Positions 1,799 to 60,756 of a DNA stretch of 64,000 nt are shown here, piece by piece. The position numbers were made by a program, and so were the translations under genes. This DNA is from a virus, in the IMG/VR virus record IMGVR_UViG_3300046674_000362, positions 1 to 64,000 of that record; one strand, written 5' to 3'. Numbering within the stretch: position 1 is the first letter of the stretch; the number at the start of each line of letters is the position of its first letter. Below the pieces are notes generated by a model that was not told where the DNA came from, did not search any database, and saw only the letters and a list, made by a program, of their open reading frames with translations.

Positions 1799-2002
1799 TC
1801 ATGATGCCGGGCACAGCGAGACAGCAGAGGCCGAGTTTTCCCGCGTGCCTTCATCGGCCATGTGCGTTGCGACCATCAGGACCAGGATCAGGACAGCGGC
1901 ACGGATCATGCGCTTGGTCGGGCGACCCGGCTCAACCATGTGCAGCAGCCCATAGGCAGCGAGCCACGAGAGGATTTTTCCGACAATGAACAGCGCGCCC
2001 AT
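1799..2002 (-). CDS. Small membrane protein
   Basis: 67 aa with two hydrophobic segments; start overlaps the stop of the upstream gene. Confidence 0.55.
   Translation of the reverse strand: MGALFIVGKILSWLAAYGLLHMVEPGRPTKRMIRAAVLILVLMVATHMADEGTRENSASAVSLCPAS
1801..1842 (-). promoter_or_regulatory. Late promoter element upstream of terS
   Basis: GGGAAAA-N29-CATCAT on the minus strand; same geometry as eight other copies. Confidence 0.65.
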
Positions 2003-2700
2003 CAGAACAGGTCCAGTTGCGGGATGAACGAGGCGAGCGGGCCTTCCTTCCCCTTGGCGATGGCAAGGCAGTGTTCCTCGATCAGCGCGCGGCGGTTGCT
2101 TGACTCCTTCAGCGGGATCATGGCCGCCTCCAGGCGCTCCACGGCGGCGGTCAGCTTGGTCCCGGCGCGCAGCTCTTCCCAGGCGGCCGGATTCAGCTCT
2201 TGCACGCGGCCCAGCGCATCGTTCACGGCCTCGGCAGCGACGGTGACGGCCTGAAGGTCCACGCGGGCGACGGCGCGTTCGCTCCCGTAGCGGACAAACG
2301 CCTCGGTCATCGCCGTAACCTGCGACTGGACGAGCTGCTCGAAGCCCCGGAACATGGCGAAACTTTCGGCCGCGACCGGATCGCGCTCCGGGTGCGGGGA
2401 AATACCCATCAGGTAGTCCACCGACACGGAGTACGCCTTGCTCATGTTCAGCAGGAACTTCCAGTCATCGGGCACCTTGCGCTCGCCGCTCTCGATCTGG
2501 CTGAGCTGGGTCGAGTTCTTGTAGCCGAGGCGCTGGGCCGCCTCTACAGCGGTCAGGCCATTCATCACGCGCGCCGAAACCATCCGTTCGCGCATCAGCT
2601 CCCTCTCGCGCGGCACGTCCTTGTTGCGCACGAAGCGCTTGGACGGGGCGCTTGGCACGCCTTCCAGCGCAATGGTGACGACTTCCTCGGTGTTGCTCAT
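2002..2700 (-). CDS. XRE-family HTH transcriptional regulator (candidate late activator)
   Basis: RVMNGLTAVEAAQRLGYKNSTQLSQIESGER...YSVSVDYLMG is an XRE HTH, followed by a helical C-terminal region. Confidence 0.8.
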   Translation of the reverse strand: MSNTEEVVTIALEGVPSAPSKRFVRNKDVPRERELMRERMVSARVMNGLTAVEAAQRLGYKNSTQLSQIESGERKVPDDWKFLLNMSKAYSVSVDYLMGISPHPERDPVAAESFAMFRGFEQLVQSQVTAMTEAFVRYGSERAVARVDLQAVTVAAEAVNDALGRVQELNPAAWEELRAGTKLTAAVERLEAAMIPLKESSNRRALIEEHCLAIAKGKEGPLASFIPQLDLF

Positions 2701-3158
2701 ACCATCCCCAGTATTTGATTAACGTAGTTGTCCAAATTCGCCCGATTTTGGTAATGGGCCAGTATCTTTTGCAGCAGAACGTCGGCGACAGCGCTATACA
2801 GGCGCTCGAAGTCCTCGGGCTTCATGCGGCCAAAGCTGATCGACTTGGCCTTGACGCGCATATCGCCGTTGATGCGGTAGGTAACGGTGAAGAACCCGGC
2901 CGCGATGGTCACGTCCTCGCGGAACTGTTCAAAGTCCTTCTGCACCGGGAAGCCCTTGTATTCGCCCTGGGGCGGGTTGAACGCATCGAATCCGACGCGC
3001 AGCAGGGCGAAGAACTTCCGGTGGAACATCGGGTTGCGCACCTGCTTGACCTCGGCGCGCACCAGCACGCCCTGTTTGATCTTGGCGATCTTCTCGGCCT
3101 CCAGCTCGTCGGCCGGGTACAGAAAGCCCTTGGGGTGCTTCAGCAGCAGGATGTCCAT
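2697..3158 (-). CDS. DUF1367 / NinB-like protein
   Basis: VRNPMFHRKFFALL...KSISFGRMKPEDFERLY signature. Confidence 0.82.
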   Translation of the reverse strand: MDILLLKHPKGFLYPADELEAEKIAKIKQGVLVRAEVKQVRNPMFHRKFFALLRVGFDAFNPPQGEYKGFPVQKDFEQFREDVTIAAGFFTVTYRINGDMRVKAKSISFGRMKPEDFERLYSAVADVLLQKILAHYQNRANLDNYVNQILGMV

Positions 3159-3566
3159 TCAGGCGGCTTCCTCGGTGCGTTCCCGCGCAAACGGGAACAA
3201 GGCGTGCAGCAGGCCGGATCGGTGCGCATGCTCACCGCGCGGCCAGTCGTTCACCCCTACGCTGCGCTGGACCACAATGCTGGCGTCCTTGCAGTCGCCG
3301 ACCGGCAGCGGGCCGCTTTCGGTGCCCAGGCAATACAGGGCGGTCTGCCTGCGGGCGCTGTTGTGCTTCGTGTGGACGGCGAGCCGCAGGATGTCGCACA
3401 GGTAGGTCACATACATATTCGCCATGCGCGGAGGCAGATTGACCAGCTCCGCGATCTGCGCCGCACTGGCGGTTTTCTCGCGCGCCACCAGGGCGATGAT
3501 CGCTTCCAGGCGCTCAATCGCGCGCGGCGTGTCCATGCGACAGCCTTGATAGGTGATCCCGCTCAC
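3159..3566 (-). CDS. Hypothetical protein, probable winged HTH
   Basis: SAAQIAELVNLPPRMANMYVTYL; coupled to both neighbours. Confidence 0.6.
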   Translation of the reverse strand: MSGITYQGCRMDTPRAIERLEAIIALVAREKTASAAQIAELVNLPPRMANMYVTYLCDILRLAVHTKHNSARRQTALYCLGTESGPLPVGDCKDASIVVQRSVGVNDWPRGEHAHRSGLLHALFPFARERTEEAA

Positions 3567-4024
3567 TTGCTACTCTCTCGAATCAGGATGCCGTGTACGG
3601 TCATCATCAGGTGCTTCTTGTTGCGGTAGGCGGCCAGCTTGCGCGTGACATCGCTTTTGAAGTCCTCGACCACCTGCGCGCCGTTCTCCATGTAGGTGAA
3701 GTCGGCCTTGTAGCGCAGCGCGGGCTTCCTGCGCCCTTCGCCCAGGTCGCACGCCGGGGCCAGGACAAAGTAGACGCCGCGCTTCAGGTCCGTGATCTGC
3801 TCCATCGCCTGCATCCGGCACAGCTCGACGTAGCGGGCATACTCGCCTTCACTGTCCCACGTCACGCCATCCACCACCACCTTGCGATTACGGAACTTCG
3901 GGCGCTTGGCAGGCGCAGCTTCAACCACCGGGCGGCCACCAGCGCCAGCGGTGCGGGCCTGGGCCAGCGCCAGATCGGCGGCGGACCAGCGGCCTCCCTT
4001 GCTGCGGTTGAATGAGGTTGCCAC
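3563..4024 (-). CDS. DUF1064-family putative PD-(D/E)xK endonuclease/resolvase
   Basis: KFRNRKVVVDGVTWDSEGEYARYVEL...YKADFTY...VVEDFK...YRNKKHLM. Confidence 0.85.
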   Translation of the reverse strand: MATSFNRSKGGRWSAADLALAQARTAGAGGRPVVEAAPAKRPKFRNRKVVVDGVTWDSEGEYARYVELCRMQAMEQITDLKRGVYFVLAPACDLGEGRRKPALRYKADFTYMENGAQVVEDFKSDVTRKLAAYRNKKHLMMTVHGILIRESSK

Positions 4025-4036
4025 AGCGCGCGGTCC

Positions 4037-6116: not shown

Positions 6117-6965
6117 TTACGGGGTGCCGGGATCGTCGCCCGGCTCGTTCGGTTCCAGTCTCGCCAGCACATCGCGGGCGTGCTCGACGTGGTAGACGTA
6201 CATCACTTCTCCAGCCGCATGGCGCGCGAGTATCGACCGCGCCCGCTCGATGGCGATGTCTCGCGAGGGCTTCTTGTCCGCCAGCGAGGCCATCGCCTTC
6301 ATTGCAGCAGCGCGGGCCTCGGCTGAGGTCATCGCCTTGCCGTCGGCATCCAGCGGCGGGGGAGGAAGCTGCGGAACAAATGGTGGCACGGCCGGGCATC
6401 CCGGCTTGAGGCGCTTATCCAGCAGCTTTTTCCACCGGGCGGCGGCCTGCGAATAGCTCGCCTGCCGCAGCTCGTACTGCCCGAAGTCCACGGCTGCCCA
6501 GTACACGGCCGGGACCGGCCAGCTATCCTCTCCGGTGCGGCGCTTGCGCATTTCCCGCACGGCGTAGTTGAATGCGTCCTCATAGTCCACGGCCGGGCGG
6601 CACAGGGCGACGAACTGCCCTTCCGTCGGTGCCCAGTCTGTGTACTTGTCCCGGCAACGCTCGATCCCTTCGAGCGCCATCTGGAACGTGATGCCCTCGG
6701 AAATCAGCGTGTTCGACCACGCCTTTTTCCAGTCCGCGACGAGCTGCGGTGACGTGAAGTGCGAACTCCACTTGTGCATGTACATGGTCGCGAAGCGCCC
6801 ATACAGGCGGTCGATGGCCGACAGCATCCGGGGCACCTCGCGGACCCCGCCCATGCCATCGGGCTCTACGACCATCACCTCACGCGGCGCGTTCCACGAA
6901 TTAAGCGTCGATGGTGTAGGGCTCGGCTGCTGGGTAAGCTGGTGCTGCTGCGGCTGCTGGGACAT
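6117..6965 (-). CDS. Replication protein P-like / helicase loader
   Basis: W...L...GIT...GIERCR...WAPTEGQFVALCR pattern typical of lambdoid P-like proteins; follows the initiator gene. Confidence 0.7.
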   Translation of the reverse strand: MSQQPQQHQLTQQPSPTPSTLNSWNAPREVMVVEPDGMGGVREVPRMLSAIDRLYGRFATMYMHKWSSHFTSPQLVADWKKAWSNTLISEGITFQMALEGIERCRDKYTDWAPTEGQFVALCRPAVDYEDAFNYAVREMRKRRTGEDSWPVPAVYWAAVDFGQYELRQASYSQAAARWKKLLDKRLKPGCPAVPPFVPQLPPPPLDADGKAMTSAEARAAAMKAMASLADKKPSRDIAIERARSILARHAAGEVMYVYHVEHARDVLARLEPNEPGDDPGTP

Positions 6966-8070
6966 TGGATGCTCCTGAATTCACGTAGGCGTTCGGGTCG
7001 AACTTGGGCGTGCGCGCCGGGGCGCTGCCGCCGTTCGAGTGCTGCGCGAGCTGGTCGGGCTTGACCGGGTACAGATCGGTCCATTTCCCGCTCATCACGC
7101 TTTGCTCGATCACGGCAACCGGGTCTTGCCCGGCGTCGCGCATCTTCGCCAGCTTTTTGATGCACAGCTCGGCAGCACGGTCAGTCATCGGTGCCTTGAC
7201 GGCAATCCGGTGCTCAGCCCAGTCATTCCATGCGGATTCAGGGAGCCAGTCGGGCAAGACTACGACCGGCGCAGCCGGTGCAGCCTTCGATTTCCTCGCG
7301 GCTTTTTTCGTAGGAGGTTTCTCTGGTGGATTATCTGATGGTTCTACTGGGGGTTCTGTGTCCCGTTTTTGGGACGGCTTCGGCGGAAAAACGGTACTGC
7401 TTGCGGGAAAAACGGTACTGCTTGCGGGAAAAACGGTACTGCTTGGAGCTGTGCCAAAAACGGCACCGCTTGAAGCTGTCCCGTTTTCGGCACCTCTTTC
7501 CCAGTGGGCCGCTTTCAACTCCTTCGATGCACCGTGCGGGGCATGCTCGTTACGGCAAAGCGGGTGGCCGCCAAGCTCGCGGAACGCGCGCAGCTCTGCC
7601 GCCTTGGCTTCCACTGGGTTGTCGAACACGGCCAGCACTTCGCGATGCAGGGGGATTTCACGGCTGAGCAAGTCCATGACCCAGCGCGAGCTGCCGCGAT
7701 AGGTGTCCAGCTCCGGGTCGCCGTTGAATGAGCGCATGCCGATGTAGAACTCGCCGGTTTCCGGGTTCGCGGTCCTGTAGACGTAATGGACAGCCGACGC
7801 CGACGGCATGCCGACGAGCTGGTAGACGATTACGCTCTTGGTCGCGCCGACGCGGTGGCCGGTGTCGCGCAGCAGCCCGGATTCACACAGGCGCTTGAGG
7901 TTGGCAAGGATGGTCTTGCGGTCCTGACTGGTATCGCGTGCCAGGGTGGCCGTGCTCGGGAAGCAGACCCCGCGCTCGTCGGCGTAGTTCGCCAAGCAGA
8001 CCATGATGAATTTCTCGCTCGACCGTGAAATATCGAGCTTGAGCACCCACGACATTGCTTCGATGCTCAT
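6901..8070 (-). CDS. Phage replication initiator (N-terminal wHTH) with embedded GIY-YIG domain
   Basis: CLANYADERGVCFPSTATLARDT (phage replication HTH); HYVY-x10-YIG; C-terminal PDWLPESAWNDWAEHR...IEQSVMSGKW domain; internal repeats. Confidence 0.85.
   Translation of the reverse strand: MSIEAMSWVLKLDISRSSEKFIMVCLANYADERGVCFPSTATLARDTSQDRKTILANLKRLCESGLLRDTGHRVGATKSVIVYQLVGMPSASAVHYVYRTANPETGEFYIGMRSFNGDPELDTYRGSSRWVMDLLSREIPLHREVLAVFDNPVEAKAAELRAFRELGGHPLCRNEHAPHGASKELKAAHWERGAENGTASSGAVFGTAPSSTVFPASSTVFPASSTVFPPKPSQKRDTEPPVEPSDNPPEKPPTKKAARKSKAAPAAPVVVLPDWLPESAWNDWAEHRIAVKAPMTDRAAELCIKKLAKMRDAGQDPVAVIEQSVMSGKWTDLYPVKPDQLAQHSNGGSAPARTPKFDPNAYVNSGASNVPAAAAAPAYPAAEPYTIDA
7360..7495. repeat. 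Iteron-like repeats, probable lytic replication origin
   Basis: GGAAAAACGGTACTGCTT three times at 21-bp period (7385-7444), a degenerate copy at about 7456, and inverted CCGTTTT copies at about 7363 and 7481; lambda-O-like placement inside the initiator gene. Confidence 0.8.
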
Positions 8071-9756: not shown

Positions 9757-9990
9757 TCAGCCCTCGCCTACGGCCGGGGCGCACATCGGCACCACCAGAT
9801 TGCGCCGCGCGAAGGCCACCTTGATACGCTCGACCAAAACGGCCGGTGCGCGGGACTTTTTCGCGGTGTTATTCAAGTGGTAATGCACGTTGGCCTGGGT
9901 GCAGCCCAGTTCGGCGGCGATGGCCTGCTGCGTCATCCTTCCGTCGTCGTACAAGGTCGATAGCGCCTGCTTTACGTCAACTTCTTTCAT
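9757..9990 (-). CDS. cro: Cro-like repressor
   Basis: MTQQAIAAELGCTQANVHYHL HTH; 77 aa; divergent from the cI-like gene. Confidence 0.75.
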   Translation of the reverse strand: MKEVDVKQALSTLYDDGRMTQQAIAAELGCTQANVHYHLNNTAKKSRAPAVLVERIKVAFARRNLVVPMCAPAVGEG

Positions 9991-10197: not shown

Positions 10198-10932
10198 ATG
10201 GAAGGCAACATGATAGGGATGGGCGCAACCTCAAACTCGTCAAATGGCGTGCGAGTGCCATCAACGACCGGCGAGCGCGTCAAGGCTCGCCGCCTGGAGC
10301 TGGACCTCTCGCAAACCGAGTTGGCGAACAAAGCGGGCCTGACTCAGCCGACCATATCGGGGCTAGAGAAAAATCGGTCGCACAGCAGCGGCAGCTTGGC
10401 GTCCATCGCGCGGGTGCTGGGCGTCAGCGCGCTATGGCTGGAAACGGGCATGGGTGATATGGTCCCATCGCATCCAGAAGAACCGCTTTCGGTCATCGTG
10501 GGCGATCCTGATGCGGTCATGGTCCCCCTGCTGGAGTGCAAGGGCAGTTGCGGCAATGGCCGCCTGTATGGCGACGTGGACTATTCCCCCATCACTATCA
10601 GCGCCCGGCTGCTGCGCTCGTTCTACGGGCGGGCCGCCAGTGAAAACCTCATCGCCTTGTATGCCGACGGCGACTCGATGGCGAGCTACATCATGCACGG
10701 CGACATCATCGTGTTCGACACTGGCATCGCCGACTTTCAGGAAAGCGGCATCTATCTGCTCGATACGCCTGACGGCCTGCGCGTCAAGCGGGTCAGCCGC
10801 CGCGCCGATGGCCGGGTTGTCCTGCGCAGTGACAGCCCGGATAAAACTCGCTTTCCCGACGAGGAATACAGCGCCGAGGAAGCGCCTCTCTTGACCGTCA
10901 AAGCCAAGTTTGTGCTGCGCATGGGCGGCTAA
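10198..10932 (+). CDS. cI: CI-like repressor (XRE HTH plus S24 peptidase)
   Basis: LSQTELANKAGLTQPTISGLE HTH; GDSM (catalytic Ser) and VKR (catalytic Lys); SCGNG cleavage loop. Exact start codon uncertain. Confidence 0.92.
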   Translation: MEGNMIGMGATSNSSNGVRVPSTTGERVKARRLELDLSQTELANKAGLTQPTISGLEKNRSHSSGSLASIARVLGVSALWLETGMGDMVPSHPEEPLSVIVGDPDAVMVPLLECKGSCGNGRLYGDVDYSPITISARLLRSFYGRAASENLIALYADGDSMASYIMHGDIIVFDTGIADFQESGIYLLDTPDGLRVKRVSRRADGRVVLRSDSPDKTRFPDEEYSAEEAPLLTVKAKFVLRMGG

Positions 10933-13410: not shown

Positions 13411-14236
13411 GAAAATCAAGGTGGACACCGCCGCGAACGATGGGGGCGCGGCTGATCTGGCCGTGTTGCCAGCGGACGCCCCGAAGGGCACGGACCTGAT
13501 GGCCGAAGCCGCCACCGTCTGCGAATCCCTGTGCGTTACCGTGATCGACAGCCCCATCATGTACGAGCTGGCGGCCACGGAGCTGCAAGAGCTGCAAGCG
13601 AAGTACAAGGCGCTGGAAGATAAGCGCTTCGCCATCACCCGCCCGATGGACGCGGCCAAGAAAGCCGTCATGAGCCTGTTCAATCCGGCGCTCGACCGCC
13701 TCAATACGGCCATCACCGGCCTCAAGGCGTCGATGCTGGAATACGACCGCGAGGAAAAGCGCAAGGCCGCCATCAAGCAGCAATTGCTGGACAAGATCGC
13801 CGCCGACCAGAAGGCCGCGCTGGCGGCCGAGGCCGCCCGGCAGGCCGAGGAAGCGCGCGTGCAGTCCGAGCGCGCCGCGCAGCTCATGGAGAAGGGCGAC
13901 AGCGCCGGGTTCAACGAGGCCATGACCGCCGCCGAGACTGCGCAGGAAATGGCAGCGGCCCTTTCGCAGACTGGCGCAGTTGTCAGCGCGGCGACGGCGC
14001 TCACGGCCGTGCCGACCGTCGCAGGCATCACCACTGCCGACGTGTGGAAGGCCCGCGTTACCGACCTCCCTGCCCTGCTGCGCTTCGTCGCCGATCACCC
14101 GGAATATCACGACTGGATCGAGGTCAAGATGACCGGCCTGCACGATATGGCGAAGGCCCAGCGTACCGAACTGCGCGTGCCCGGCGTCGAGGCGTTCGAG
14201 GAATCCCGCATCGCCGCCGCTCGCAAGGCGGCATAA
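13400..14236 (+). CDS. Coiled-coil phage protein
   Basis: Long Ala/Glu/Lys helical region; C-terminal W.ARV.D...VPGVEAFEE motif common in phage recombination modules. Confidence 0.75.
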   Translation: MASKKIKVDTAANDGGAADLAVLPADAPKGTDLMAEAATVCESLCVTVIDSPIMYELAATELQELQAKYKALEDKRFAITRPMDAAKKAVMSLFNPALDRLNTAITGLKASMLEYDREEKRKAAIKQQLLDKIAADQKAALAAEAARQAEEARVQSERAAQLMEKGDSAGFNEAMTAAETAQEMAAALSQTGAVVSAATALTAVPTVAGITTADVWKARVTDLPALLRFVADHPEYHDWIEVKMTGLHDMAKAQRTELRVPGVEAFEESRIAAARKAA

Positions 14237-14299
14237 GCATCACCGGGCAGGCCCGCCCTGCCCTTCCAAAAACGAGAACCGAAAGAACCGAGAATAACC

Positions 14300-15547
14300 A
14301 TGTGGATCAGAAACGCCCAGGTGTACCGCCTCCCCGCCCCCTACGCAATGACTGCCGAAAAGCTGGCTGAGGCCATCGCGCATCAAAAATTCGTGCCTTG
14401 CACCAGCATGGAAAAGGACCGCTCGGGCTGGGTTGCGCCCTTCCCCGACGGTGAGCTGGTGCATGTGGTGAACCGCCAGTATTTCCTGAAGCTCTGCACG
14501 CAAACCAAGGTGCTGCCGGGCTCAGTCGTGAACAAGGAGCTGAAGGCGCGCGCCGCCGCCCTGGAAGAACAACAGGGCTTCGCGCCTGGGAAGAAGGCCA
14601 CCAAGGAGCTGAAGGAGCGCATCACCGACGAGCTGCTGGCGAAGGCGTTCGCGAAGGACGAGCACATGCTGGTCTGGATCGACCCGGTGAACGGCTGGCT
14701 GGTCATCGACGCGGCCAGCGCCAGCAAGGCCGATGCCGTGGTGAAGCTGCTGCTGAAGGCCATCGACAAGCTGCCGCTCGAATCGCTGCGCGTGCAGCGC
14801 TCGCCGGTTGCCGTCATGACCGGCTGGCTGGAGTCGGACGAAGCCCCGTATAACTTCACGATGGATCAGGATGCGACCCTGAAGGCGACCGGCGAGAGCA
14901 ACGCCACGGTGCGCTACCAGCGTCACAGCCTGGACCCGGAGGATATGCGCCGCCACATCGCCGCAGGCAAGCAGTGCGTGCGGCTGGCGATGACGTGGAA
15001 CAGCCGCGTGTCGTTCGTGCTGGACGAGTCGCTGACCATCAAGGGCATCAAGCCACTCGATGTCATCAAGGAAGGCACCGCGATCACCTACAGCGATCAG
15101 GAGCGCGCCGACAACGACCTCATGCTGATGTCTGGCGAGCTGTCGAAGCTCCTGGGCGATCTGGTCGAGGCGATGGGCGGCGAGGCGAAGGATGGCGAAG
15201 CGGGCAGCGATGGCCAGCAGCAGATCGCCGATGGCAGTGCCCACGAGGCGGTCCGCAAGCTGCACCAGATGGCCGCGAGCGAGGGCGTGAGCGCCACCCT
15301 GATCTACGGTGACAAGTCCGTGACGTTCGGCGCGAAGCTACCGCCTGATGGCGAAGGCGACGACGCCGCCATGTACGAAAAGGCCGTCGCTATCGTGCGT
15401 CAGCACCAGCGCGCATCTATCTCCCTGGTCCAGCGCCACCTCGCCATCGGCTACAACCGCGCCGCGCGCCTGATGGAACAAATGGAAGCCAAGGGCGTCG
15501 TCGGCCCGATGGAGTCGAACGGAAACCGCACCATCATCAACCAATAA
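14300..15547 (+). CDS. rdgC: RdgC fused to a C-terminal FtsK gamma (wHTH) domain
   Basis: MWIRNAQVYRL...SGWV.P...LPGSVV (RdgC); YEKAVAIV...ASISLVQRHLAIGYNRAARLMEQMEAKGVVGP (FtsK gamma). Confidence 0.92.
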   Translation: MWIRNAQVYRLPAPYAMTAEKLAEAIAHQKFVPCTSMEKDRSGWVAPFPDGELVHVVNRQYFLKLCTQTKVLPGSVVNKELKARAAALEEQQGFAPGKKATKELKERITDELLAKAFAKDEHMLVWIDPVNGWLVIDAASASKADAVVKLLLKAIDKLPLESLRVQRSPVAVMTGWLESDEAPYNFTMDQDATLKATGESNATVRYQRHSLDPEDMRRHIAAGKQCVRLAMTWNSRVSFVLDESLTIKGIKPLDVIKEGTAITYSDQERADNDLMLMSGELSKLLGDLVEAMGGEAKDGEAGSDGQQQIADGSAHEAVRKLHQMAASEGVSATLIYGDKSVTFGAKLPPDGEGDDAAMYEKAVAIVRQHQRASISLVQRHLAIGYNRAARLMEQMEAKGVVGPMESNGNRTIINQ

Positions 15548-15565
15548 CAACAGGAGAACCGCCCC

Positions 15566-16510
15566 ATGAATACCACGAAAACCCCTGCCGCTGCCGCCGC
15601 ATCGCAGTTTGTGTCCCTCAAGGCCGCTGCCGAGGACAAGGCTAATCCAGCCGTCGGCAAGGAAACCACTTTCAAGGTTGACCCGCGTGTGATCGAGATT
15701 CAGCCGGGCTTTAACCGGCCGATCAGCCGCGAGCACGTCGAACAGCTCAAGACCTCGATTCGCAACGGCGCGACCCTGCCACCGATCTTCGTCCGCGTCG
15801 AGCCGGGCCGCATCATCATGGTGGATGGCGAGCACCGCTGGATCGCCGTCATGGAGCTGATCGCCGATGGCATGGAAATCCCGTTTATGTCGGCCATCCA
15901 GTTCCGGGGCAGCGACGCCGACGCCATCGCGCACTTGCTCACCAGCGCGCAAGGGCAGGCAATCTCGCCGCTCGACCAGGGCATCCAGTATCTCAAGCTG
16001 GTGCGCCTGCACTGGGACGTGAAGATGATCGCCGCGCGTACCGGCAAGAGCACCACGCACATTGAAAACTGCCTGACGCTGGCCGAGGCGAATACCGACG
16101 TGCAGCAGGCCGTGCGTAACGGCGAGGTCGCAAGCTCGCTGGCCGTCGATCTGGTCAAGGAACACGGCCCCGAGGCCGGGAAGGTTATTCAAACCGAGCT
16201 GGTCAAGGCCAAGGACAGCGGCAAAACCAAGGTGACGCGCGCCAGCGTGCAGGGGCGCGCGGTGCCGCGCAAGCTGGTGGATCGCGTCGAGAGCAACATG
16301 CGGACCCTGTTCGAGTCGCGGCCGGACCTGACGGCCGAGGGACTGGCCGAGCTGCCCGAGGGTGCTTCGGTATCGGTTCCGGCCGCCCTGCTGGCCGAGC
16401 TGCGCGCCGCACATGATGAGGTGCAGAAGATGCGCGCCAAGGAAGCGGCGGCCGCTGCGGCTGCGCCCCAGGCACCAGCCACCCCCGAGGAAGGCACCGG
16501 CAACGAATAA
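15566..16510 (+). CDS. ParB/Srx-domain protein with HTH
   Basis: PGFNR...LPPIFV...MVDGEHR; HTH IAARTGKSTTHI. Confidence 0.85.
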   Translation: MNTTKTPAAAAASQFVSLKAAAEDKANPAVGKETTFKVDPRVIEIQPGFNRPISREHVEQLKTSIRNGATLPPIFVRVEPGRIIMVDGEHRWIAVMELIADGMEIPFMSAIQFRGSDADAIAHLLTSAQGQAISPLDQGIQYLKLVRLHWDVKMIAARTGKSTTHIENCLTLAEANTDVQQAVRNGEVASSLAVDLVKEHGPEAGKVIQTELVKAKDSGKTKVTRASVQGRAVPRKLVDRVESNMRTLFESRPDLTAEGLAELPEGASVSVPAALLAELRAAHDEVQKMRAKEAAAAAAAPQAPATPEEGTGNE

Positions 16511-16695
16511 TGCAACTCTCATTCTTTGATGAGCTTGACGCGCCCGCACCGGCACCCGCCCAGGTTGCGGTCGCGTCACGAATAATCGAGACTCCGCATG
16601 CGCGCTGCCCGGCGTGCGGCTCGATGTTCCTGGCAGTCGAGTGGCTGGCATGGCGCAAGGCTGGTTACTGTCGTGAATCACATCAACCCAAATGA
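16510..16695 (+). CDS. Small CxxC protein
   Basis: 61 aa; CPAC; TAATG coupling to the upstream gene. Confidence 0.5.
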   Translation: MQLSFFDELDAPAPAPAQVAVASRIIETPHARCPACGSMFLAVEWLAWRKAGYCRESHQPK

Positions 16696-16960
16696 TAGCG
16701 AATCACATAACTCCATATTATTTGTATCCACATCATTTCATGTGACATCACATCAGATGATGTGATGTCAACTCACATAACTCAGCCGCCACGCCCGTTA
16801 CAAGGAGTTGGCGGCTTTTCGCGCCGAATGCGATGTTAATTGATGTCAAATGATGTCATATCACATCAAGTTAAGTAGGCAAAATCGATATGATGTGATG
16901 TTATATCAATCTATGTCATCTTAAATAATTCAATATCGCATTAGGTGATTTAATGTGACT
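16675..16960. repeat. TGATGT/ACATCA repeat array; candidate centromere (parS/parH-like) and par operator
   Basis: Many TGATG/CACAT units in both orientations; perfect 13-bp inverted repeat TGACATCACATCA-ga-TGATGTGATGTCA at 16743-16770; just upstream of parA. Confidence 0.75.
16784..16820 (+). terminator. Probable terminator of the early recombination operon
   Basis: AGCCGCCA...TGGCGGCT followed by TTT. Confidence 0.55.
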
Positions 16961-17083
16961 CGACACGGAATAGCCTCATGTAAATCCATTTGAAATAGTT
17001 CAACATGGTATTAGATTTCCCTTGCGTGAACTTATAAAGAGTCTGATAATCGCGAGTGTTATCAATCCACCAAGGGGAAGCGC

Positions 17084-17725
17084 ATGAATGTCTTGATCGC
17101 AGGCGAGAAGGGCGGCACCGGGAAAACCACCACGTCAATTAACATGGCCGTGGCGCGCGCGCTGGCGAGCCGTGATGTGCTGCTGGTGAACGCCGACAAG
17201 CAAAACAGCGCTGCGGAGTGGGCGGCGATCCGGGCTAGAGAGAAAATCGCGCCGAATATCACTTGCGTTTCGATTCTCGGGGCAACGCTGGCCGACGAAA
17301 TCCGCAGGCTCGAAGGGAAGTTTGAGGACATTATCATCGACGCAGGCGGCATCGACTCGCTCGAACTGCGCTCGGGGATGCTGGTCGCCGACGTGATCGT
17401 GACGCCTGCCCGCCCGTCCCAGTTCGACGTTTTCACGCTGGCGAAGATGGACAAACTTGTGGCCGAGGCAAAGGCGTTCAACACGAAGCTCACGGCCGCG
17501 ATCCTCTGCAATTGCGCGCCGACGCACCCGAACAGCACCGATGCGCAGGAAATGGCCGAGTACGTCGATGGCCTGCAAAACTACACGATGCTGCAAACTA
17601 TCGTCCGCCAGCGCAAGGTGTACCAGAACTGCGCCCGCGACGGCATGGGCGCGCTCGAATACGTCCGGGGCGATGAAAAGGCAATCGCTGAAATGACCGC
17701 CCTCGCTGCGGAGATTTGGGCATGA
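17084..17725 (+). CDS. parA: Short (type Ib) ParA partition ATPase
   Basis: KGGTGKTT deviant Walker A; NADKQ; IIIDAGG; no N-terminal HTH. Confidence 0.93.
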   Translation: MNVLIAGEKGGTGKTTTSINMAVARALASRDVLLVNADKQNSAAEWAAIRAREKIAPNITCVSILGATLADEIRRLEGKFEDIIIDAGGIDSLELRSGMLVADVIVTPARPSQFDVFTLAKMDKLVAEAKAFNTKLTAAILCNCAPTHPNSTDAQEMAEYVDGLQNYTMLQTIVRQRKVYQNCARDGMGALEYVRGDEKAIAEMTALAAEIWA

Positions 17726-18273
17726 ACCAGAAAAAGAAACAGGGCTTTCGTAGCCCGAGCGAGTTTGTCGAGGCTGCGAACGAAGCGCCCGCCTTGATGC
17801 ACGTTGATCCGGCAGGCGGCGTCACAGTCGTCAAGGCGGGCGACAGCGCCACAGCGCCAGCGCCAGAACTGACCCCGGCACCCACTCCAGCACCGGCCCA
17901 GGCAGCAGGGGAGGGCGCACCGGCTGCACAGGAGGCCGCACAGGCAACGAACGAGGGCAAACCGGCACAAGCACCAGCGCCAGCGAAGGACAAGCCCCAG
18001 CGGCCCGCAAAACCGGCCGCTGACAAGCCCGGCATCCACACGCACAGGCGCGCGGACGACGGCCCGCCCGAGCCGCCCCCGGCACCGTGGGACAGCGAAA
18101 GCCCGGACATCAAGGGTCCGGGCTATCAATACCGCTTCGACAAGCGCCTACACGCGCAGATTCAGTGGATTTCGGACAACGTACCGCAGCACAAGTCCAT
18201 GCAAGTCGTCATCGACAAGGCCGTGCGCGCATACGTCGCCGAAGTCCTCGAAAAGCACTACAAGCCCGAATGA
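17722..18273 (+). CDS. Partition partner: disordered N-terminus, C-terminal ribbon-helix-helix-like domain
   Basis: ATGA overlap with parA; YQYRFDKRLHAQIQW...SMQVVIDKAVRAYV fits strand-helix-helix. Confidence 0.7.
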   Translation: MNQKKKQGFRSPSEFVEAANEAPALMHVDPAGGVTVVKAGDSATAPAPELTPAPTPAPAQAAGEGAPAAQEAAQATNEGKPAQAPAPAKDKPQRPAKPAADKPGIHTHRRADDGPPEPPPAPWDSESPDIKGPGYQYRFDKRLHAQIQWISDNVPQHKSMQVVIDKAVRAYVAEVLEKHYKPE

Positions 18274-18464
18274 CCTGGGCCGCCTGCATCCCCAGCGCCG
18301 ACTGCCGCCAGTTGGCGCGTTTCAGCCTCGTATTCCTTCGCGCAGTCGCCTGAGCACCAATGTGCTTTAGGCGGCACCTTGTAGCCGCAGAAGTGGCACT
18401 TCCCATCCGGGTACAGCGTCCCGGCCGCGCGCCGCTCAATTCGCGCCTGCTTGCTTAAACTCAC
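18258..18464 (-). CDS. Small Zn-ribbon protein
   Basis: CHFC...WCSGDC. Confidence 0.65.
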   Translation of the reverse strand: MSLSKQARIERRAAGTLYPDGKCHFCGYKVPPKAHWCSGDCAKEYEAETRQLAAVGAGDAGGPGHSGL

Positions 18465-19635: not shown

Positions 19636-19766
19636 AGCTCCACCACCGCCAGCAGCGCGATCAGGGACAGGGCCATCGTACCCAGTGTCCGGGTCTTGAG
19701 GCGCGGGTTAAGCACGCCCCACAGGCATACGCTGACCACGATAAAGAGTGCGGTTTTCAGGAGCAT
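19626..19766 (-). CDS. Small two-TM protein (holin/antiholin component)
   Basis: Below the ORF-track cutoff: MLLKTALFIVVSVCLWGVLNPRLKTRTLGTMALSLIALLAVVELCR*; overlaps both neighbours. Confidence 0.65.
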   Translation of the reverse strand: MLLKTALFIVVSVCLWGVLNPRLKTRTLGTMALSLIALLAVVELCR

Positions 19767-20321: not shown

Positions 20322-20363
20322 AGTTTAAGAACAAAGTCGCGAGGACTTCGCTATGCTTTTCCT
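20322..20363 (-). promoter_or_regulatory. Late promoter element upstream of the lysis cassette
   Basis: AGGAAAA-N29-TAAACT. Confidence 0.6.
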
Positions 20364-21957: not shown

Positions 21958-21999
21958 AGTATGTGCGCGGCCCTTGCGGGCGGTCCCGGCGCTTTTCCT
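21958..21999 (-). promoter_or_regulatory. Late promoter element
   Basis: AGGAAAA-N29-CATACT. Confidence 0.75.
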
Positions 22000-22006: not shown

Positions 22007-22031
22007 AAAAAAAGGCGGGGATTCCCCCGCC
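22007..22031 (-). terminator. Terminator of the capsid-sheath operon
   Basis: GGCGGGG hairpin followed by T7 on the minus strand. Confidence 0.8.
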
Positions 22032-22056
22032 CTTGGCGCTTGGTGCGCGGCCCAGG

Positions 22057-26539: not shown

Positions 26540-26581
26540 ATTGTCAAGGCGGCGGGAGGCGGCCCGCCGCCCAGTTTTCCT
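26540..26581 (-). promoter_or_regulatory. Late promoter element for the capsid operon
   Basis: AGGAAAA-N29-GACAAT. Confidence 0.8.
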
Positions 26582-27078: not shown

Positions 27079-27672
27079 TTAAGTTGGTGTACCAGTAGTG
27101 CCCGAGCCCGTCGCGACGCCGCTGTGCTTGTGATCGCTGCCGATGTTCTTGCCGTTGTTCGTGACGGTGCCGCCGATGCTCGCGCCTCCAGTGCCCGTCA
27201 TGCCCGCCTTGTAGGTGAAAGCGCCCTGCACCTCGACCTTGCCGGTAAAGGTGGAGTCAGCCGAATCGACCAGCACCTTTGGCGATGTCACCGTGGCCTG
27301 CTTGCTCGCGTTCACAACCGCCTCGGGCGTGTTGATCGTCACTTTTGCGCCCGCGTCGATGATGAATTCACCATCTGCCGTGAACTGGAAGTTTGCATGC
27401 TCGAATCTGCGCCAGTCGATGCCGTTTTCCTCCTGCCTGGGGCGGTAGCCGACGATGACCGGGTAGCGCGGATCGCCGCCGACGAAGGCCAGCCAAACCC
27501 GGTCGCCGGGCTTGACGCGGATTTCCGTATGCTCGCTCTTGTCGCCGACGGGGTTGCAGAACTGCGCCTCGGGCAAGTCAGTTGCGCCATCGGTCAGGCC
27601 GGGAATCCGCACCTTCGCAATACGCGCCTCCCGGTCGATGGAATCCACTTCAGCAGGCATCAGGCCAATCAC
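27079..27672 (-). CDS. Baseplate spike / gpV-like protein
   Basis: OB fold (VRIPGLTDG...GDRVWLAFVGGDPRYPVIVG), beta-helix repeats, terminal HKH metal-binding motif. Confidence 0.88.
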   Translation of the reverse strand: MIGLMPAEVDSIDREARIAKVRIPGLTDGATDLPEAQFCNPVGDKSEHTEIRVKPGDRVWLAFVGGDPRYPVIVGYRPRQEENGIDWRRFEHANFQFTADGEFIIDAGAKVTINTPEAVVNASKQATVTSPKVLVDSADSTFTGKVEVQGAFTYKAGMTGTGGASIGGTVTNNGKNIGSDHKHSGVATGSGTTGTPT

Positions 27673-29655: not shown

Positions 29656-29697
29656 ACTTTACGGCCTGCCAGGGTAGCCCTCGGCCCGACTTTTCCT
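29656..29697 (-). promoter_or_regulatory. Late promoter element
   Basis: AGGAAAA-N29-TAAAGT. Confidence 0.75.
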
Positions 29698-29700: not shown

Positions 29701-29725
29701 AAAAAAAAAGCCCGCCGAAGCGGGC
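29701..29725 (-). terminator. Rho-independent terminator
   Basis: GCCCGC-ttcg-GCGGGC followed by T9 on the minus strand. Confidence 0.88.
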
Positions 29726-29743
29726 CAAATCCATGAGGGCGCG

Positions 29744-34753: not shown

Positions 34754-34795
34754 ATTGTTGCGCCTGCCGAGGGGAGGCCCGGCGCTGATTTTCCT
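34754..34795 (-). promoter_or_regulatory. Late promoter element for the portal operon
   Basis: AGGAAAA-N29-AACAAT. Confidence 0.8.
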
Positions 34796-34801: not shown

Positions 34802-34826
34802 AAAAAAGCCCGCTCGGGGCGGGCTT
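34802..34826 (-). terminator. Rho-independent terminator
   Basis: GCCCGC hairpin followed by T6 on the minus strand. Confidence 0.85.
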
Positions 34827-34847
34827 CTGGCGGGCTGGTGCTGGGGA

Positions 34848-43281: not shown

Positions 43282-43323
43282 AGTATGCCGCCCGTCAACC
43301 ACACCAAAACCGGGGCTTTTCCT
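43282..43323 (-). promoter_or_regulatory. Late promoter element for darB
   Basis: AGGAAAA-N29-CATACT. Confidence 0.8.
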
Positions 43324-51260: not shown

Positions 51261-51302
51261 ATTGTCAGGGCCGGGGTGAGGCCGGGTGCGGCGGGTTTTC
51301 CT
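51261..51302 (-). promoter_or_regulatory. Late promoter element for the darA operon
   Basis: AGGAAAA-N29-GACAAT. Confidence 0.8.
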
Positions 51303-51316: not shown

Positions 51317-51357
51317 GCTTGACGGCTCTTATTGTGAGCGCATACAATGTGAATCAT
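51317..51357 (+). promoter_or_regulatory. Early promoter with operator (copy 2 of 3)
   Basis: GCTTGACG-gctctt-ATTGTGAGCGCA-TACAAT-gtGAATCAT. Confidence 0.85.
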
Positions 51358-59720: not shown

Positions 59721-60046
59721 TATGCGGCCTCCTCGAAGCCATGAGCGCGAACGGACACATTGCCCGTACTGCTGCGCACGATGATCTTCTCGCCCGGCGA
59801 GCAAACTACGCCGGTACGCTCCAGCACACCACCAGCTTGCAGCGTAGCGTCATATTCGATGTAGTCATCGACTATCGGCGCGGCCCCGACAGAGACAGCC
59901 AGCCGCACCAAGGCATCGCCGGGACCGCGATTACAAAAGCTAATGGTTGCAGTTGCGACCGTTGCGACCGGGGCGGCCGGGGCGGTATAGATCGCGGTAT
60001 CTTGACTGGCCGCGAGCGCGGCCTTTCCGAGTCTGCCTGATGGCAT
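59720..60046 (-). CDS. Small beta-rich tail-fibre adaptor-like protein
   Basis: IYTAPA...ISFCNR...YIEYD..L..GGVLERTG. Confidence 0.6.
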   Translation of the reverse strand: MPSGRLGKAALAASQDTAIYTAPAAPVATVATATISFCNRGPGDALVRLAVSVGAAPIVDDYIEYDATLQAGGVLERTGVVCSPGEKIIVRSSTGNVSVRAHGFEEAA

Positions 60047-60057
60047 AGTGGCTCTCC

Positions 60058-60687
60058 TTAAAGGCTAGTATGGAAAAAGCGCTTGGCGCGGCGGCCCATG
60101 ATTAGGGCGTCTACCTCGGCTTGCGTCATGTATTGGGGGTGAGGGTCGTTCCTCGCCTCATGATCCGTAACCGCAGCGCCGAGTTCGTCGGCGGTAACGT
60201 ACTGCGGGTGAGGGTCTAGATCGGCCTCGTGGGCGAAGATCATGGACTGCATGGCCGCGTCGCCCAGCTCCACCTGCACCGTTACCGAGTCAGCGGGAAG
60301 GGCCGACACGTCGAGCGTGTACGCGATAGGCACGTCATATTCCGCCGACTTGTAGAACAGGTACTTATCGCTGCGGCTCCAGATCGCAACGAGCGTCGCC
60401 CCGGCGTAGAAGCCGATTTCGCCTATCCACTGGTCATTGAGGGGGCGTCCGTCCGGGTCTTGATCCTTGAGGGTGATGCCGACGCGGATCGAGGTCGGGG
60501 ACGCCTTGCCCCCAGCGACAACCGGGAAGCGCGCCAGCTCGTTCGCAAGCGCCGTTTCGTCGCCGGTCGGATCGTACTTTCCCGAGCCGATGGCGATGTC
60601 CGTCAGCGTGAGCTGAAAACCCGGCGTCGGAGACTGCGGGAACAGCGCTAGGCCAGCATGGGTGAACGTTGGGTTAATGGGGACCAT
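60058..60687 (-). CDS. Tail fibre anchor protein (baseplate-attachment domain plus H-x-x-x-x-DPHPQY repeats)
   Basis: T.AGL...IAIGSG.Y.P...ETALANE..R...EIGFY; DPHPQY twice. Start at ATG 60687, downstream of the late promoter. Confidence 0.75.
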   Translation of the reverse strand: MVPINPTFTHAGLALFPQSPTPGFQLTLTDIAIGSGKYDPTGDETALANELARFPVVAGGKASPTSIRVGITLKDQDPDGRPLNDQWIGEIGFYAGATLVAIWSRSDKYLFYKSAEYDVPIAYTLDVSALPADSVTVQVELGDAAMQSMIFAHEADLDPHPQYVTADELGAAVTDHEARNDPHPQYMTQAEVDALIMGRRAKRFFHTSL

Positions 60688-60714
60688 GTTTTGCCCTGAA
60701 TGACTTGGTAGGTC

Positions 60715-60756
60715 ATTCTGCGGCACCGCCCCCGCCGCGCCCGCGCTGGTTTTCCT
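60715..60756 (-). promoter_or_regulatory. Late promoter element for the tail-fibre operon
   Basis: AGGAAAA-N29-CAGAAT. Confidence 0.8.

What the first reader, a model, noticed from the sequence alone, without database searches (positions are those of the whole stretch)
1801..60756. Late-promoter code RGGAAAA-N29-NAnnnT upstream of nine late units
Seen: nine minus-strand sites have (A/G)GGAAAA, exactly 29 nt of mostly GC-rich spacer, then a -10-like hexamer. They are 1801-1842 CATCAT (terS), 20322-20363 TAAACT (lysis), 21958-21999 CATACT, 26540-26581 GACAAT (capsid), 29656-29697 TAAAGT, 34754-34795 AACAAT (portal), 43282-43323 CATACT (darB), 51261-51302 GACAAT (darA) and 60715-60756 CAGAAT (tail fibre). 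Three sit immediately downstream of an intrinsic terminator. Intragenic AGGAAAA hits I checked (about 24940, 39500, 48885, 62188, 63420) lack the hexamer at +29; one at 27390-27431 (CAAACT) has it. Known: P1 late promoters use an Lpa site centred at -22. Inference: this phage uses a different activator bound near -45, with no -35 box. I do not recognise this architecture.
Basis: partly seen in the sequence, partly recalled or inferred. Interest (0 to 1): 0.85.

Follow-up and report, generated by a model that had tools for sequence, protein, structure and literature searches.

The report
Late-gene promoter code of phage-plasmids
A plasmid-like phage with P1-type particle genes starts its late gene blocks from look-alike promoters (a GGAAAA box, 29 bases, then a -10 element, no -35 box), a layout kept in many related phages and probably switched on by an uncharacterised phage DNA-binding protein.

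Summary
RGGAAAA-N29-NANNNT occurs 10 times in the window, all on the minus strand, against 0.32 expected. An unbiased 7-mer-plus-distance scan puts AGGAAAA at 29 nt first. Eight of the nine listed sites lie in front of late genes and are kept, with diverged spacers, in relatives. The terS site (1801-1842) lies inside a small ORF and is not conserved, so it is doubtful. Two more sites lie beyond the window.

The core is GGAAAA. The same layout occurs in 16 related records of Burkholderia type and Xanthomonas. pBVIE05 mostly uses 30 nt. Two Pseudomonas plasmids use GGAAAG or GCAAAC at 29 nt.

An ATG 5-7 bases after the hexamer in three gene groups supports the hexamer as a -10 element. No -35 box, Lpa, Mor/C, Ogr, sigma or Q homologue was found.

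The best candidate reader is the XRE-type protein 2002-2700. It is the only regulator-like early gene kept in all relatives, and its recognition helix changes where the box changes. This link is correlation only; no transcript data exist.

The scan has noted this code before on other genomes. It is a new variant of activator-dependent late promoters.

The parts
20322..20363 (-). Late promoter. The box AGGAAAA overlaps the last codons of gene 20351-21178. It is followed by 29 nt and TAAACT, and drives a small ORF and then the holin gene 19766-20113.
   Evidence: Kept in G001, G002, G003 and pBVIE05.
21958..21999 (-). Late promoter (CATACT) of the PmgG-like head gene. An ATG lies 6 bases after the hexamer, so the mRNA is probably leaderless.
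   Evidence: The orthologues in G001 and G002 have TGGAAAA-N29-CATACT and the same ATG offset.
22007..22034 (-). Intrinsic terminator (10-bp GC stem and a U run) just upstream of the box at 21999.
   Evidence: -22.3 kcal/mol, z -2.59.
26540..26581 (-). Late promoter (GACAAT) of the major capsid-like gene 24829-26490.
   Evidence: Kept in G001, G002, G003, G004 and pBVIE05.
27390..27431 (-). Intragenic match (CAAACT) inside gene 27079-27672. It may be an internal promoter or a by-product of protein conservation.
   Evidence: Box, spacing and hexamer are kept in G001, G002, pBVIE05 and G015, but inside conserved coding sequence. Unresolved.
29656..29697 (-). Late promoter (TAAAGT) of the tail tube gene 29134-29622.
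   Evidence: Kept in G001, G002, G003, G005, G004 and pBVIE05.
29701..29726 (-). Intrinsic terminator just upstream of the box at 29697.
34754..34795 (-). Late promoter (AACAAT) of the portal gene 33144-34724.
   Evidence: Kept in G001 and G002 (as TGGAAAA), G003, G005, G004 and pBVIE05 (30 nt).
34802..34828 (-). Intrinsic terminator just upstream of the box at 34795.
   Evidence: -16.3 kcal/mol, z -2.72.
43282..43323 (-). Late promoter (CATACT) of the 2267-aa DarB-like gene 36433-43236.
   Evidence: Kept in G001, G002 and pBVIE05 (30 nt).
51261..51302 (-). Late promoter (GACAAT) of the DarA-position gene (ATG near 51254, ending at 48483). The ATG lies 6 bases after the hexamer, so the mRNA is probably leaderless.
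   Evidence: Kept with a near-identical ATG offset in G002, G004, pBVIE05, Rb1 and W03.
60715..60756 (-). Late promoter (CAGAAT) of the tail-fibre gene 60058-60687.
   Evidence: Kept in G001, G002 and pBVIE05.
1801..1842 (-). Doubtful site (GGGAAAA ... CATCAT) 28 nt before the terS ATG.
   Evidence: It lies inside a 67-codon ORF (1799-2002) whose product looks like a small membrane protein by my reading of its hydrophobic stretches. It is not found upstream of terS in G001 or G002. 0.32 chance matches are expected per window.
2002..2700 (-). Candidate late activator, 232 aa. It has an XRE/434-repressor-like helix-turn-helix (about residues 31-97) and a long helical hairpin (108-215). It is the last gene of the early replication/nin block, next to terS.
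   Evidence: Homologues occur in all 18 other records examined. The recognition helix changes where the box changes. Binding is not shown.

Best explanation
**What the sites are.** They are the late promoters of a temperate phage-plasmid. Its particle genes are of the P1 type and its early region resembles that of lambda. Each promoter has two parts:
- an asymmetric upstream box, (T)AGGAAAA, with core GGAAAA;
- a weak -10 hexamer, nAnAaT, 29 nt downstream.

With the hexamer at -12 to -7, the box lies at about -49 to -42. The G+C-rich stretch between them holds no -35 element. Host sigma-70 RNA polymerase alone should therefore use these promoters poorly.

**Proposed mechanism (inferred).** A phage protein made at the end of the early operon binds the box. 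From there, about one helical turn upstream of where region 4 of sigma sits, it recruits or positions the polymerase. The likely contacts are sigma region 4 and/or the alpha C-terminal domain, as Mu Mor does from -43.5 and lambda cI from about -42.

Transcription would start about 7 bases after the hexamer. In three gene groups that base is the A of the start codon, so those mRNAs would be leaderless.

**Most likely reader.** The best candidate is the 232-aa XRE-type protein encoded at 2002-2700.

**Shown versus inferred.**
- Shown here: the motif, its enrichment, its strand and position, its conservation with diverged spacers, the lack of a -35 box, and the lack of known late regulators.
- Inferred: that these are promoters (my estimate about 0.85); that an activator binds the box; that it is 2002-2700 (about 0.55); and which polymerase contacts are made.
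For: **Enrichment.** There are 10 matches against 0.32 expected in shuffles. The whole record has 11 reverse and 0 forward matches, and 0 in the reversed-pattern control. AGGAAAA at 29 nt is the top 7-mer-plus-distance pair in G000 (10 of 23, p 2e-18), and the box at the same offset (GGAAAAC at 28 nt or AGGAAAA at 29 nt) is top in G001 and G002.

**Position.** Eight window sites and two beyond it lie just upstream of late gene starts. Three follow terminators.

**Conservation.**
- Of 54 GGAAAA-N29-NANNNT matches in G000-G005, 52 are on the late-gene strand.
- Orthologous sites keep the box, the distance and the hexamer while the spacers diverge.
- The logo of 43 sites in 11 groups shows information only at -49 to -42 and in the hexamer.
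- The layout recurs in pBVIE05, Xanthomonas phage Rb1 and ten further IMG/VR records.

**The hexamer as -10.** Over 101 unique sites, an ATG lies 5, 6 or 7 bases after the hexamer in 3, 10 and 4 of them. Other offsets hold about 1.1 each. These sites fall into three orthologous gene groups.

**No -35 box**.

**No other known late system.** No Lpa, Mor/C, Ogr over the cut-off, sigma-70 region 2 or Q.

**The candidate reader 2002-2700.**
- It has an XRE helix-turn-helix.
- It sits after the nin-like genes and before terS in G000, G001, G002, G004, pBVIE05, Rb1 and both Pseudomonas plasmids.
- Besides terL and an RdgC-FtsK-gamma protein, it is the only non-virion gene found in all five distant complete records.
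- All 10 further relatives have a homologue.
- Its recognition helix is invariant in 41 homologues.
- The helix fits GYxN[SP][ST][QK][LI]S in 16 of 16 records with a GGAAAA box. It differs in the two records with other boxes: GGAAAG in W03 and GCAAAC in W04.
Against: - No transcript or binding data exist. No RNA run holds this DNA.
- The link between box and protein is a correlation on related genomes. Only two variant-box lineages were found, and both are Pseudomonas plasmids, so host or phylogeny could explain the pattern.
- The W04 box is statistically borderline: 11 of 46, p 5e-7 before correction for about 170,000 k-mer-by-distance tests. It does, however, sit at five orthologous late genes.
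- XRE-type proteins usually bind palindromes as dimers. The box is asymmetric and no second half-site is seen.
- Two helix types (NSTQLSQ and NPSKLSK) go with the same GGAAAA core, so the helix may not be what reads the core.
- One listed site (terS) is probably a chance match. One intragenic site is unexplained.
Confidence: 0.6

Rival explanations
1. The sites are late promoters, but the box is read by something other than 2002-2700. Candidates are another phage protein not recognised here, including the universal RdgC-FtsK-gamma protein (14300-15547), or the host RNA polymerase alpha C-terminal domain using the A-tract as a UP-like element. In the second case a phage co-factor that does not bind DNA would give the timing.
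For: - The GGAAAA core stays the same across two different helix types of the XRE protein.
- The box is asymmetric, with no second half-site.
- AAAA at -45 to -42 lies within one base of the proximal UP subsite (recalled, not from a call).
- The RdgC-FtsK-gamma protein is as universal as the XRE protein, and FtsK gamma domains read short asymmetric purine-rich words (recalled).
- P1 itself needs a host co-activator, SspA (PMC1891329 and PMC3152322, passages read).
Against: - The invariant GG and the preferred TA before it are not features of UP elements (recalled consensus).
- The box changes to GGAAAG and GCAAAC in two lineages. That fits a co-evolving phage factor better than a conserved host subunit.
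- RdgC-type proteins are recombination factors, and this gene lies among recombination and partition genes.
- No other regulator-like gene is shared by all records. Small, fast-evolving proteins could escape tblastn.
Confidence: 0.27
2. A phage-encoded or alternative sigma-like factor recognises both the box and the hexamer directly as a two-part promoter.
For: The distance between the two conserved elements is fixed, and there is no -35 box.
Against: - No sigma-70 region 2 match occurs anywhere in the record in six frames.
- A gap of 29-30 nt is far longer than the 16-18 nt that a sigma-70 family factor spans (established knowledge).
- The hexamer looks like an ordinary sigma-70 -10 element, with A2 and T6 fixed by the search pattern and A4 in 82% of the weighted sites.
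Confidence: 0.05
3. The motif is not a promoter. It would be another kind of signal placed between operons, such as a terminator or insulator for opposite-strand transcription (GC hairpin followed by TTTTCC on the plus strand), or an RNA-level or packaging signal.
For: The capsid spacer read on the plus strand scores as a terminator-like hairpin followed by TTTTCC (26548-26571). Many spacers are G+C-rich.
Against: - Spacer hairpin energy is not clearly beyond G+C-matched controls: mean -11.2 against -9.7 kcal/mol.
- A terminator needs no fixed distance to an A/T hexamer, yet the distance is exact.
- Start codons 5-7 bases after the hexamer are kept in three gene groups.
- The box is not at ribosome-site distance from any start codon.
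Confidence: 0.05

Closest known systems
Phage Mu middle promoter Pm with Mor, and Mu late promoters with C
   Same: Both have a -10 hexamer, no -35 hexamer and no extended -10. [quoted passage not shown] C binds from -30 to -55 (PMC3152322, passage read). Here the box lies at -49 to -42.
   Different: The Mu sites are dyad-symmetric and bound by dimers of the Mor/C family. Here the box is asymmetric and no Mor-family match exists in the record. There are at least 10 dispersed units here, against four late promoters in Mu (PMC4461284, abstract seen in the listing).
Phage P1 late promoters with Lpa (gp10) and host SspA
   Same: The particle genes are related (PmgG-, PmgB-, Hdf- and DarB-like). 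Many separate late operons each have their own -35-less promoter. The regulator gene lies just upstream of the packaging genes: in P1 the order is lpa, LPpac, pacA.
   Different: P1's box is a 9-bp element at -22, 4-9 nt before the hexamer in the five promoters printed (10 nt from the 9-bp box in four, 15 in LPhot). Here the box is 29 nt before the hexamer. No Lpa homologue is found. Dependence on SspA could not be tested.
Lambda cI at PRM, 434 repressor and restriction-modification controller (C) proteins: XRE-type activators that touch sigma region 4
   Same: The helix-turn-helix domain of 2002-2700 matches these folds: 434 repressor, ImmR, P22 c2, C.AhdI and the lambda cI-sigma region 4 complex 1rio (Z 9.0). 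They activate from a site next to or overlapping the -35 region (recalled).
   Different: Those proteins bind palindromic operators as dimers, and their promoters keep a -35 element (recalled). Here there is one asymmetric box and no -35. The C-terminal helical hairpin has no informative match.
P2 Ogr / P4 Delta late promoters
   Same: A phage activator works on several -35-poor late promoters through the alpha subunit (PMC3152322, passage read).
   Different: Those use inverted repeats centred at about -55 and a small zinc-finger protein. No Ogr/Delta match over the cut-off exists here, and nothing is conserved at -55.

Membership tests
P1-type (Lpa-dependent) late promoters | The phage encodes an Lpa (gp10) homologue. 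| tested here: not met
   tblastn of P1 Lpa (translated from AF234172.1) against the whole record gave a best E-value of 0.31 over 20 residues. A remote homologue cannot be excluded by this test.
P1-type (Lpa-dependent) late promoters | A conserved 9-bp box centred at about -22, a few bases upstream of the -10 hexamer. | tested here: not met
   P1's annotated '-22 regions' were printed. In the logo of 43 sites no position between -41 and -13 is conserved.
P1-type (Lpa-dependent) late promoters | A -10 hexamer without a -35 element, at many dispersed late operons. | tested here: met
   There are at least 10 units in the record.
P1-type (Lpa-dependent) late promoters | Requirement for host SspA. 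| not testable with these tools
   The requirement is known for P1 from PMC1891329 and PMC3152322 (passages read). Testing it here needs genetics.
Mu Mor/C-dependent promoters | An activator of the Mor/C family (Pfam PF08765). | tested here: not met
   A six-frame search of the record found no match at E <= 0.1.
Mu Mor/C-dependent promoters | A dyad-symmetric activator site centred near -43.5. | tested here: not met
   The position is similar (box at -49 to -42), but the box is asymmetric and no second half-site appears in the logo.
Mu Mor/C-dependent promoters | A -10 hexamer present, with no -35 hexamer and no extended -10. | tested here: met
   One search shows no -35. No TGn precedes the hexamers in the sites printed.
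P2 Ogr/Delta-dependent late promoters | A zinc-finger activator (Pfam PF04606). | tested here: not met
   There is only a 12.9-bit match (cut-off 26.3), on the strand opposite terS.
Lambdoid Q antitermination | A Q-family antiterminator and a single late promoter with a Q-binding element. | tested here: not met
   No PF06530 match was found; other Q families were not searched. There are at least 10 separate promoter-like units, three of them directly after terminators.
Promoters of a phage-encoded sigma factor | A sigma-70 family protein is encoded. | tested here: not met
   No Sigma70_r2 match was found. One small Cro-position protein has a sub-threshold region-4-like helix-turn-helix.
XRE (lambda cI/434/C-protein) type class II activators | An XRE-type helix-turn-helix DNA-binding domain in the candidate activator. 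| tested here: met
   Pfam HTH_31/HTH_3 matches are just under the cut-offs. The PDB profile search gave ImmR at 1.7e-5 and 434 repressor at 4e-4. The fold matches have Z 8.5-10.
XRE (lambda cI/434/C-protein) type class II activators | A palindromic operator next to or overlapping the -35 region, bound by a dimer. | tested here: inconclusive
   No palindrome is seen. Only weak G/C preference appears at -37 to -35. The oligomeric state and the footprint are unknown.

The most novel reading that the evidence does not exclude
A large clade of P1-like phage-plasmids of Beta- and Gammaproteobacteria has replaced the Lpa/-22 system with a new class of late activator. This would be an XRE-type helix-turn-helix protein with a long helical hairpin. 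It would read one asymmetric 8-bp box about 45 bp upstream of the start and drive -35-less promoters, several of them giving leaderless mRNAs. Box and recognition helix would co-evolve (GGAAAA, GGAAAG, GCAAAC).
Probability: 0.5. Interest if true: 0.65.

Novelty: new variant of a known kind. Interest (0 to 1): 0.55.

Why it matters
- **Annotation.** The code gives a simple, testable rule for finding late operons and their start points in a widespread but unstudied group of 80-115 kb phage-plasmids of Burkholderia, Paraburkholderia, Xanthomonas and Pseudomonas.
- **Evolution.** It shows that relatives sharing P1's particle genes do not share P1's late switch.
- **A concrete candidate.** It names a candidate regulator with natural box variants. 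Specificity swaps could test how one asymmetric site 45 bp upstream activates a promoter with no -35 element.
- **Possible use.** If confirmed, the box-activator pairs could serve as tight, orthogonal expression switches in G+C-rich bacteria.

The finding is moderately surprising to a specialist. It is a new member of a known class of solutions, not a new principle.

Tried and rejected
- **Hairpins in the spacers.** Mean folding energy was -11.2 kcal/mol, against -9.7 for G+C-matched genomic 29-mers and -9.0 for shuffles. There is no clear signal, so I dropped the idea that the spacer acts as a structure.
- **A second half-site or a -35 box.** None was found in the logo or in the TTGACA scoring.
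- **A private motif in G004.** The top k-mer, CACAGCC, turned out to be a repeated coding segment. G004 in fact uses C/TGGAAAA-N29.
- **RNA evidence.** No RNA holder was listed for window 20200-30000. Only four rhizosphere metagenome DNA runs were listed, three of them possible sources.
- **Megablast against phages and plasmids.** This gave nothing in phages and one 380-bp hit in plasmids. Protein searches were needed to find relatives.
- **Fold searches of the whole 2002-2700 model.** Only the helix-turn-helix domain matched. The helical hairpin gave generic coiled-coil rows.
- **Conserved stretch after the promoter at 72947-72988.** It has no shared ORF and no Rfam match. The consensus fold is weak, at -6.5 kcal/mol. 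It is left open.
- **One-mismatch boxes.** Only three matches appeared and none is convincing.
- **Literature searches.**
  - Searches found no description of this code, of pBVIE05 biology, or of phage Rb1. sought papers on P1 Lpa and SspA and gave the two read.
  - The P1 genome paper (PMC523184) is not held, so P1 promoter facts come from the GenBank record and from two other papers.
  - Supplementary tables of PMC7969092, which list phage-plasmid groups, could not be seen, so I cannot say whether this group is named there.
- **Errors of mine.**
  - In one search a partial-contig case (G003 darB) printed a very long stretch and the output was cut.
  - In one search I grouped the G004 site at 54131 with the pmgG promoters, although it lies downstream of that gene in G004.
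  - One search failed on a parsing error and was repeated.
  - The W03 record repeats about 20 kb at its ends, so 3 of its 18 sites are duplicates.

Full report
**What the window is.** The window is bases 1-64000 of an 85,481-bp IMG/VR virus record with 127-bp terminal repeats and 63.6% G+C.
- PHROG matches give P1-type particle genes: PmgG-like, PmgB-like, Hdf-like, DarB-like, portal, tail tube, tail fibre, holin and small terminase.
- The early region resembles that of lambda. It has a cI-like repressor with an S24 peptidase domain (10198-10932, plus strand) and a small Cro-position helix-turn-helix protein (9757-9990).
- It also has an O-like initiator (6901-8070) containing 21-bp iterons, a P-like helicase loader, NinB and a RusA-like resolvase.
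- ParA/ParB-like genes fit a plasmid prophage.

**The observation.**
- RGGAAAA-N29-NANNNT has 10 matches, all on the minus strand. One hundred dinucleotide-preserving shuffles gave a mean of 0.32 and a largest value of 2.
- In the whole record the AGGAAAA form has 11 reverse and 0 forward matches, and 0 for the pattern read backwards. This adds sites at 65217-65258 and 72947-72988.
- A scan of every 7-mer against every distance from 10 to 44 nt to an NANANT hexamer, made without reference to the finding, ranks AGGAAAA at 29 nt first in G000 (10 of 23 copies, p 2e-18). The box at the same offset also ranks first in G001 (GGAAAAC at 28 nt; AGGAAAA at 29 nt third) and in G002. The ordinary CTTGACG-17/18 pair of sigma-70 promoters comes far behind in G000 and G002 and is not among the twelve rows listed for G001.
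- The distance histogram has a single peak at 29 nt.
- Spacers average 78% G+C, against 63% for the genome.
- The three terminators are confirmed by folding.

**Which sites are real members.**
- Eight window sites lie directly upstream of late gene starts. They are 20322, 21958, 26540, 29656, 34754, 43282, 51261 and 60715.
- The terS site differs: GGGAAAA and CATCAT, inside a 67-codon ORF (1799-2002). G001 and G002 have equivalent small ORFs there but no box. I treat it as a probable chance match.
- The intragenic site 27390-27431 is kept in G001, G002, pBVIE05 and G015, but inside conserved coding sequence. It is unresolved.

**Conservation.**
- A portal search found five relatives. G001 and G002 are complete, G003 and G005 are fragments, and G004 is a 97-kb provirus with 51% portal identity.
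- All carry the pattern on the late strand only, with 0 matches of the reversed pattern. Of 54 GGAAAA-N29-NANNNT matches in G000-G005, 52 are on the late-gene strand.
- Orthologous promoters keep the box, the 29 nt and the hexamer while the spacer sequence changes. Some have TGGAAAA or CGGAAAA, so the core is GGAAAA.
- A logo of 43 sites in 11 orthologous groups, weighted by group, shows information at T-49, A-48, GGAAAA (-47 to -42) and nAnAaT (-12 to -7). There is weak G/C preference at -37 to -35 and G/T at -6, and nothing else.
- The best match to TTGACA at 16-18 nt from the hexamer is about 2 of 6, as in random 29-mers.

**Wider family.** Homologues of the 2002-2700 protein led to four named records:
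- B. vietnamiensis G4 plasmid pBVIE05;
- Xanthomonas phage Rb1;
- two Pseudomonas plasmids.

What these and further records show:
- Rb1 has 8 forward and 0 reverse GGAAAA-N29 matches. pBVIE05 has 5 at 29 nt and 13 of 55 at 30 nt, at the orthologous late genes.
- The P. psychrotolerans plasmid (W03) uses TTCGGAAAG-N29. GGAAAG has 18 of 48 copies with a hexamer at 29 nt, three of them duplicates of a repeated record end. TCGGAA at 31 nt has 19 of 31 (p 2e-22).
- The P. fluorescens plasmid (W04) has GCAAAC(C)-N29 at the capsid, tube, portal and baseplate-operon orthologues, and GAAAAC at the DarA-position gene. The count is 11 of 46 (p 5e-7), which is borderline after multiple testing.
- Ten further IMG/VR relatives (portal 49-70% identical) all show strand-biased GGAAAN-N30 matches.

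**Evidence that the hexamer is a -10 element.** Over 101 unique sites in ten records, an ATG follows the hexamer after 5, 6 or 7 bases in 3, 10 and 4 of them. Other offsets from 0 to 27 hold about 1.1 each. These cases are the PmgG-like, DarA-position and 96-aa baseplate-operon genes. The offset is kept in distant relatives although the intervening bases differ. That is what leaderless mRNAs starting about 7 bases after a -10 hexamer would look like. The three groups are orthologous sets, not 17 independent events.

**What is absent.** The following were not found:
- an Lpa homologue (best tblastn E-value 0.31);
- a Mor/C family match;
- an Ogr/Delta match over the cut-off;
- a sigma-70 region 2 match;
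- a Q antiterminator of family PF06530.

P1's own late promoters, as annotated in GenBank, have their box at -22.

**The candidate reader.** Gene 2002-2700 is the last gene of the early block. It overlaps the end of NinB and lies next to terS, the position that Q holds in lambda and lpa in P1.
- *Structure.* Its product has an XRE-type helix-turn-helix. The AlphaFold model was built with 41 homologues and has a mean pLDDT of 75.9. It shows that domain at residues 31-97 and a long helical hairpin at 108-215.
- *Fold matches.* Fold searches match only the first domain: 434 repressor, ImmR, P22 c2, controller proteins and lambda cI bound to sigma region 4.
- *Synteny.* The same gene order holds in G001, G002, G004, pBVIE05, Rb1 and both Pseudomonas plasmids.
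- *Universality.* Of all G000 ORFs outside the late operons, only this gene, an RdgC-FtsK-gamma gene (14300-15547) and terL are found in all five distant complete records. All ten further relatives have a homologue, fragments included.
- *Recognition helix.* It is invariant in 41 homologues down to 32% identity. It fits GYxN[SP][ST][QK][LI]S in 16 of 16 records that use GGAAAA. It reads GQKQCSQVS in the GGAAAG record and GHSNLTMIS in the GCAAAC record. Within the GGAAAA records, the NSTQLSQ type goes with tAGGAAAA, and the NPSKLSK type (seen in G004 and Rb1) goes with cGGAAAAA.
- *Limit.* This fits a co-evolving reader, but it is correlation on a tree with few independent changes.

**Mechanism proposed.** The following is inferred from geometry and from known systems. 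With the hexamer at -12 to -7, the box centre is 35 bp from the centre of the -10 element. It is also about 12 bp, roughly one helical turn, upstream of where a -35 hexamer would be. A protein on the box would therefore sit beside sigma region 4 and within reach of the alpha C-terminal domain.

This is the geometry of Mu Mor at Pm (site centred at -43.5; both C-terminal domains required; PMC4287176). From recalled knowledge it is also that of lambda cI at PRM. How an XRE-type protein reads a single asymmetric box is not explained. The G+C-rich spacer is also unexplained.

**Earlier notes of this scan.** One search lists follow-ups on other genomes that reached the same reading: a GGAAAA or GGAAAG box 28-29 nt before a -10 element in P1-like phage-plasmids, probably read by an uncharacterised helix-turn-helix protein. 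I saw them after my own analysis. They agree with it but are not independent evidence.

**Verdict.** This is a new variant of activator-dependent phage late promoters. It was not found in the searched literature.

Noticed in passing
window 7385-7445 (array continues with degenerate copies to about 7500): A 21-bp direct repeat (GGAAAAACGGTACTGCTTGCG) occurs 2.9 times at 100% identity inside the O-like replication initiator gene 6901-8070. This is probably the iteron origin, as in lambda. Its GGGAAAA copies on the plus strand account for two of the RGGAAAA hits.
   Followed up: partly
G000 72800-72946, minus strand (beyond the window): The late promoter at 72947-72988 is followed by about 70-100 nt that are conserved in G001 and G002, less so in pBVIE05. 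There is no shared ORF, no Rfam match and only a weak consensus fold. It could be a late small RNA or an unrecognised short gene.
   Followed up: partly
window 1799-2002, minus strand: A 67-codon ORF lies between the XRE-type gene and terS, and by my reading of its two hydrophobic stretches its product looks like a small membrane protein. G001 and G002 have ORFs of the same kind at the same place without detectable sequence similarity.
   Followed up: partly
G006, G007, G010, G011, G012 (loci L104-L106, L110, L111): In this sub-group a GGAAAA-N29-hexamer site lies inside the coding sequence of the XRE-type gene itself, upstream of terS. It may be the terS promoter that G000 seems to lack.
   Followed up: no
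pBVIE05 (CP000621.1), whole record: Most late promoters of this plasmid have 30 nt rather than 29 between box and hexamer (13 of 55 boxes at 30, 5 at 29), so the system tolerates one extra base.
   Followed up: yes
window 14300-15547, plus strand: An RdgC domain is fused to an FtsK gamma domain. The gene is kept in all distant relatives. P1 has an RdgC-family gene, hrdC, whose annotated length (906 bp) leaves no room for a gamma domain. The gamma domain might link the plasmid prophage to host XerCD dimer resolution (my inference).
   Followed up: no
window about 51320-51345, minus strand: A near-palindrome (TTGTATGCGCTCACAAT) lies about 20 nt upstream of the box of the DarA-position promoter. 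Other first-stage notes on this genome describe it as a lacO-like operator of early promoters.
   Followed up: no
CP018759.1 (W03), positions about 13700-18400 and 108000-112700: Three promoter sites and their flanks are identical at both ends of this 114-kb plasmid record. This suggests a terminal duplication of about 20 kb or an assembly overlap.
   Followed up: no
Xanthomonas phage Rb1 (PQ569993.1) 690-730: A GGAAAA-N29-GATAAT site lies immediately upstream of the XRE-type gene itself and overlaps its annotated start codon. This could mean positive autoregulation in that phage.
   Followed up: no
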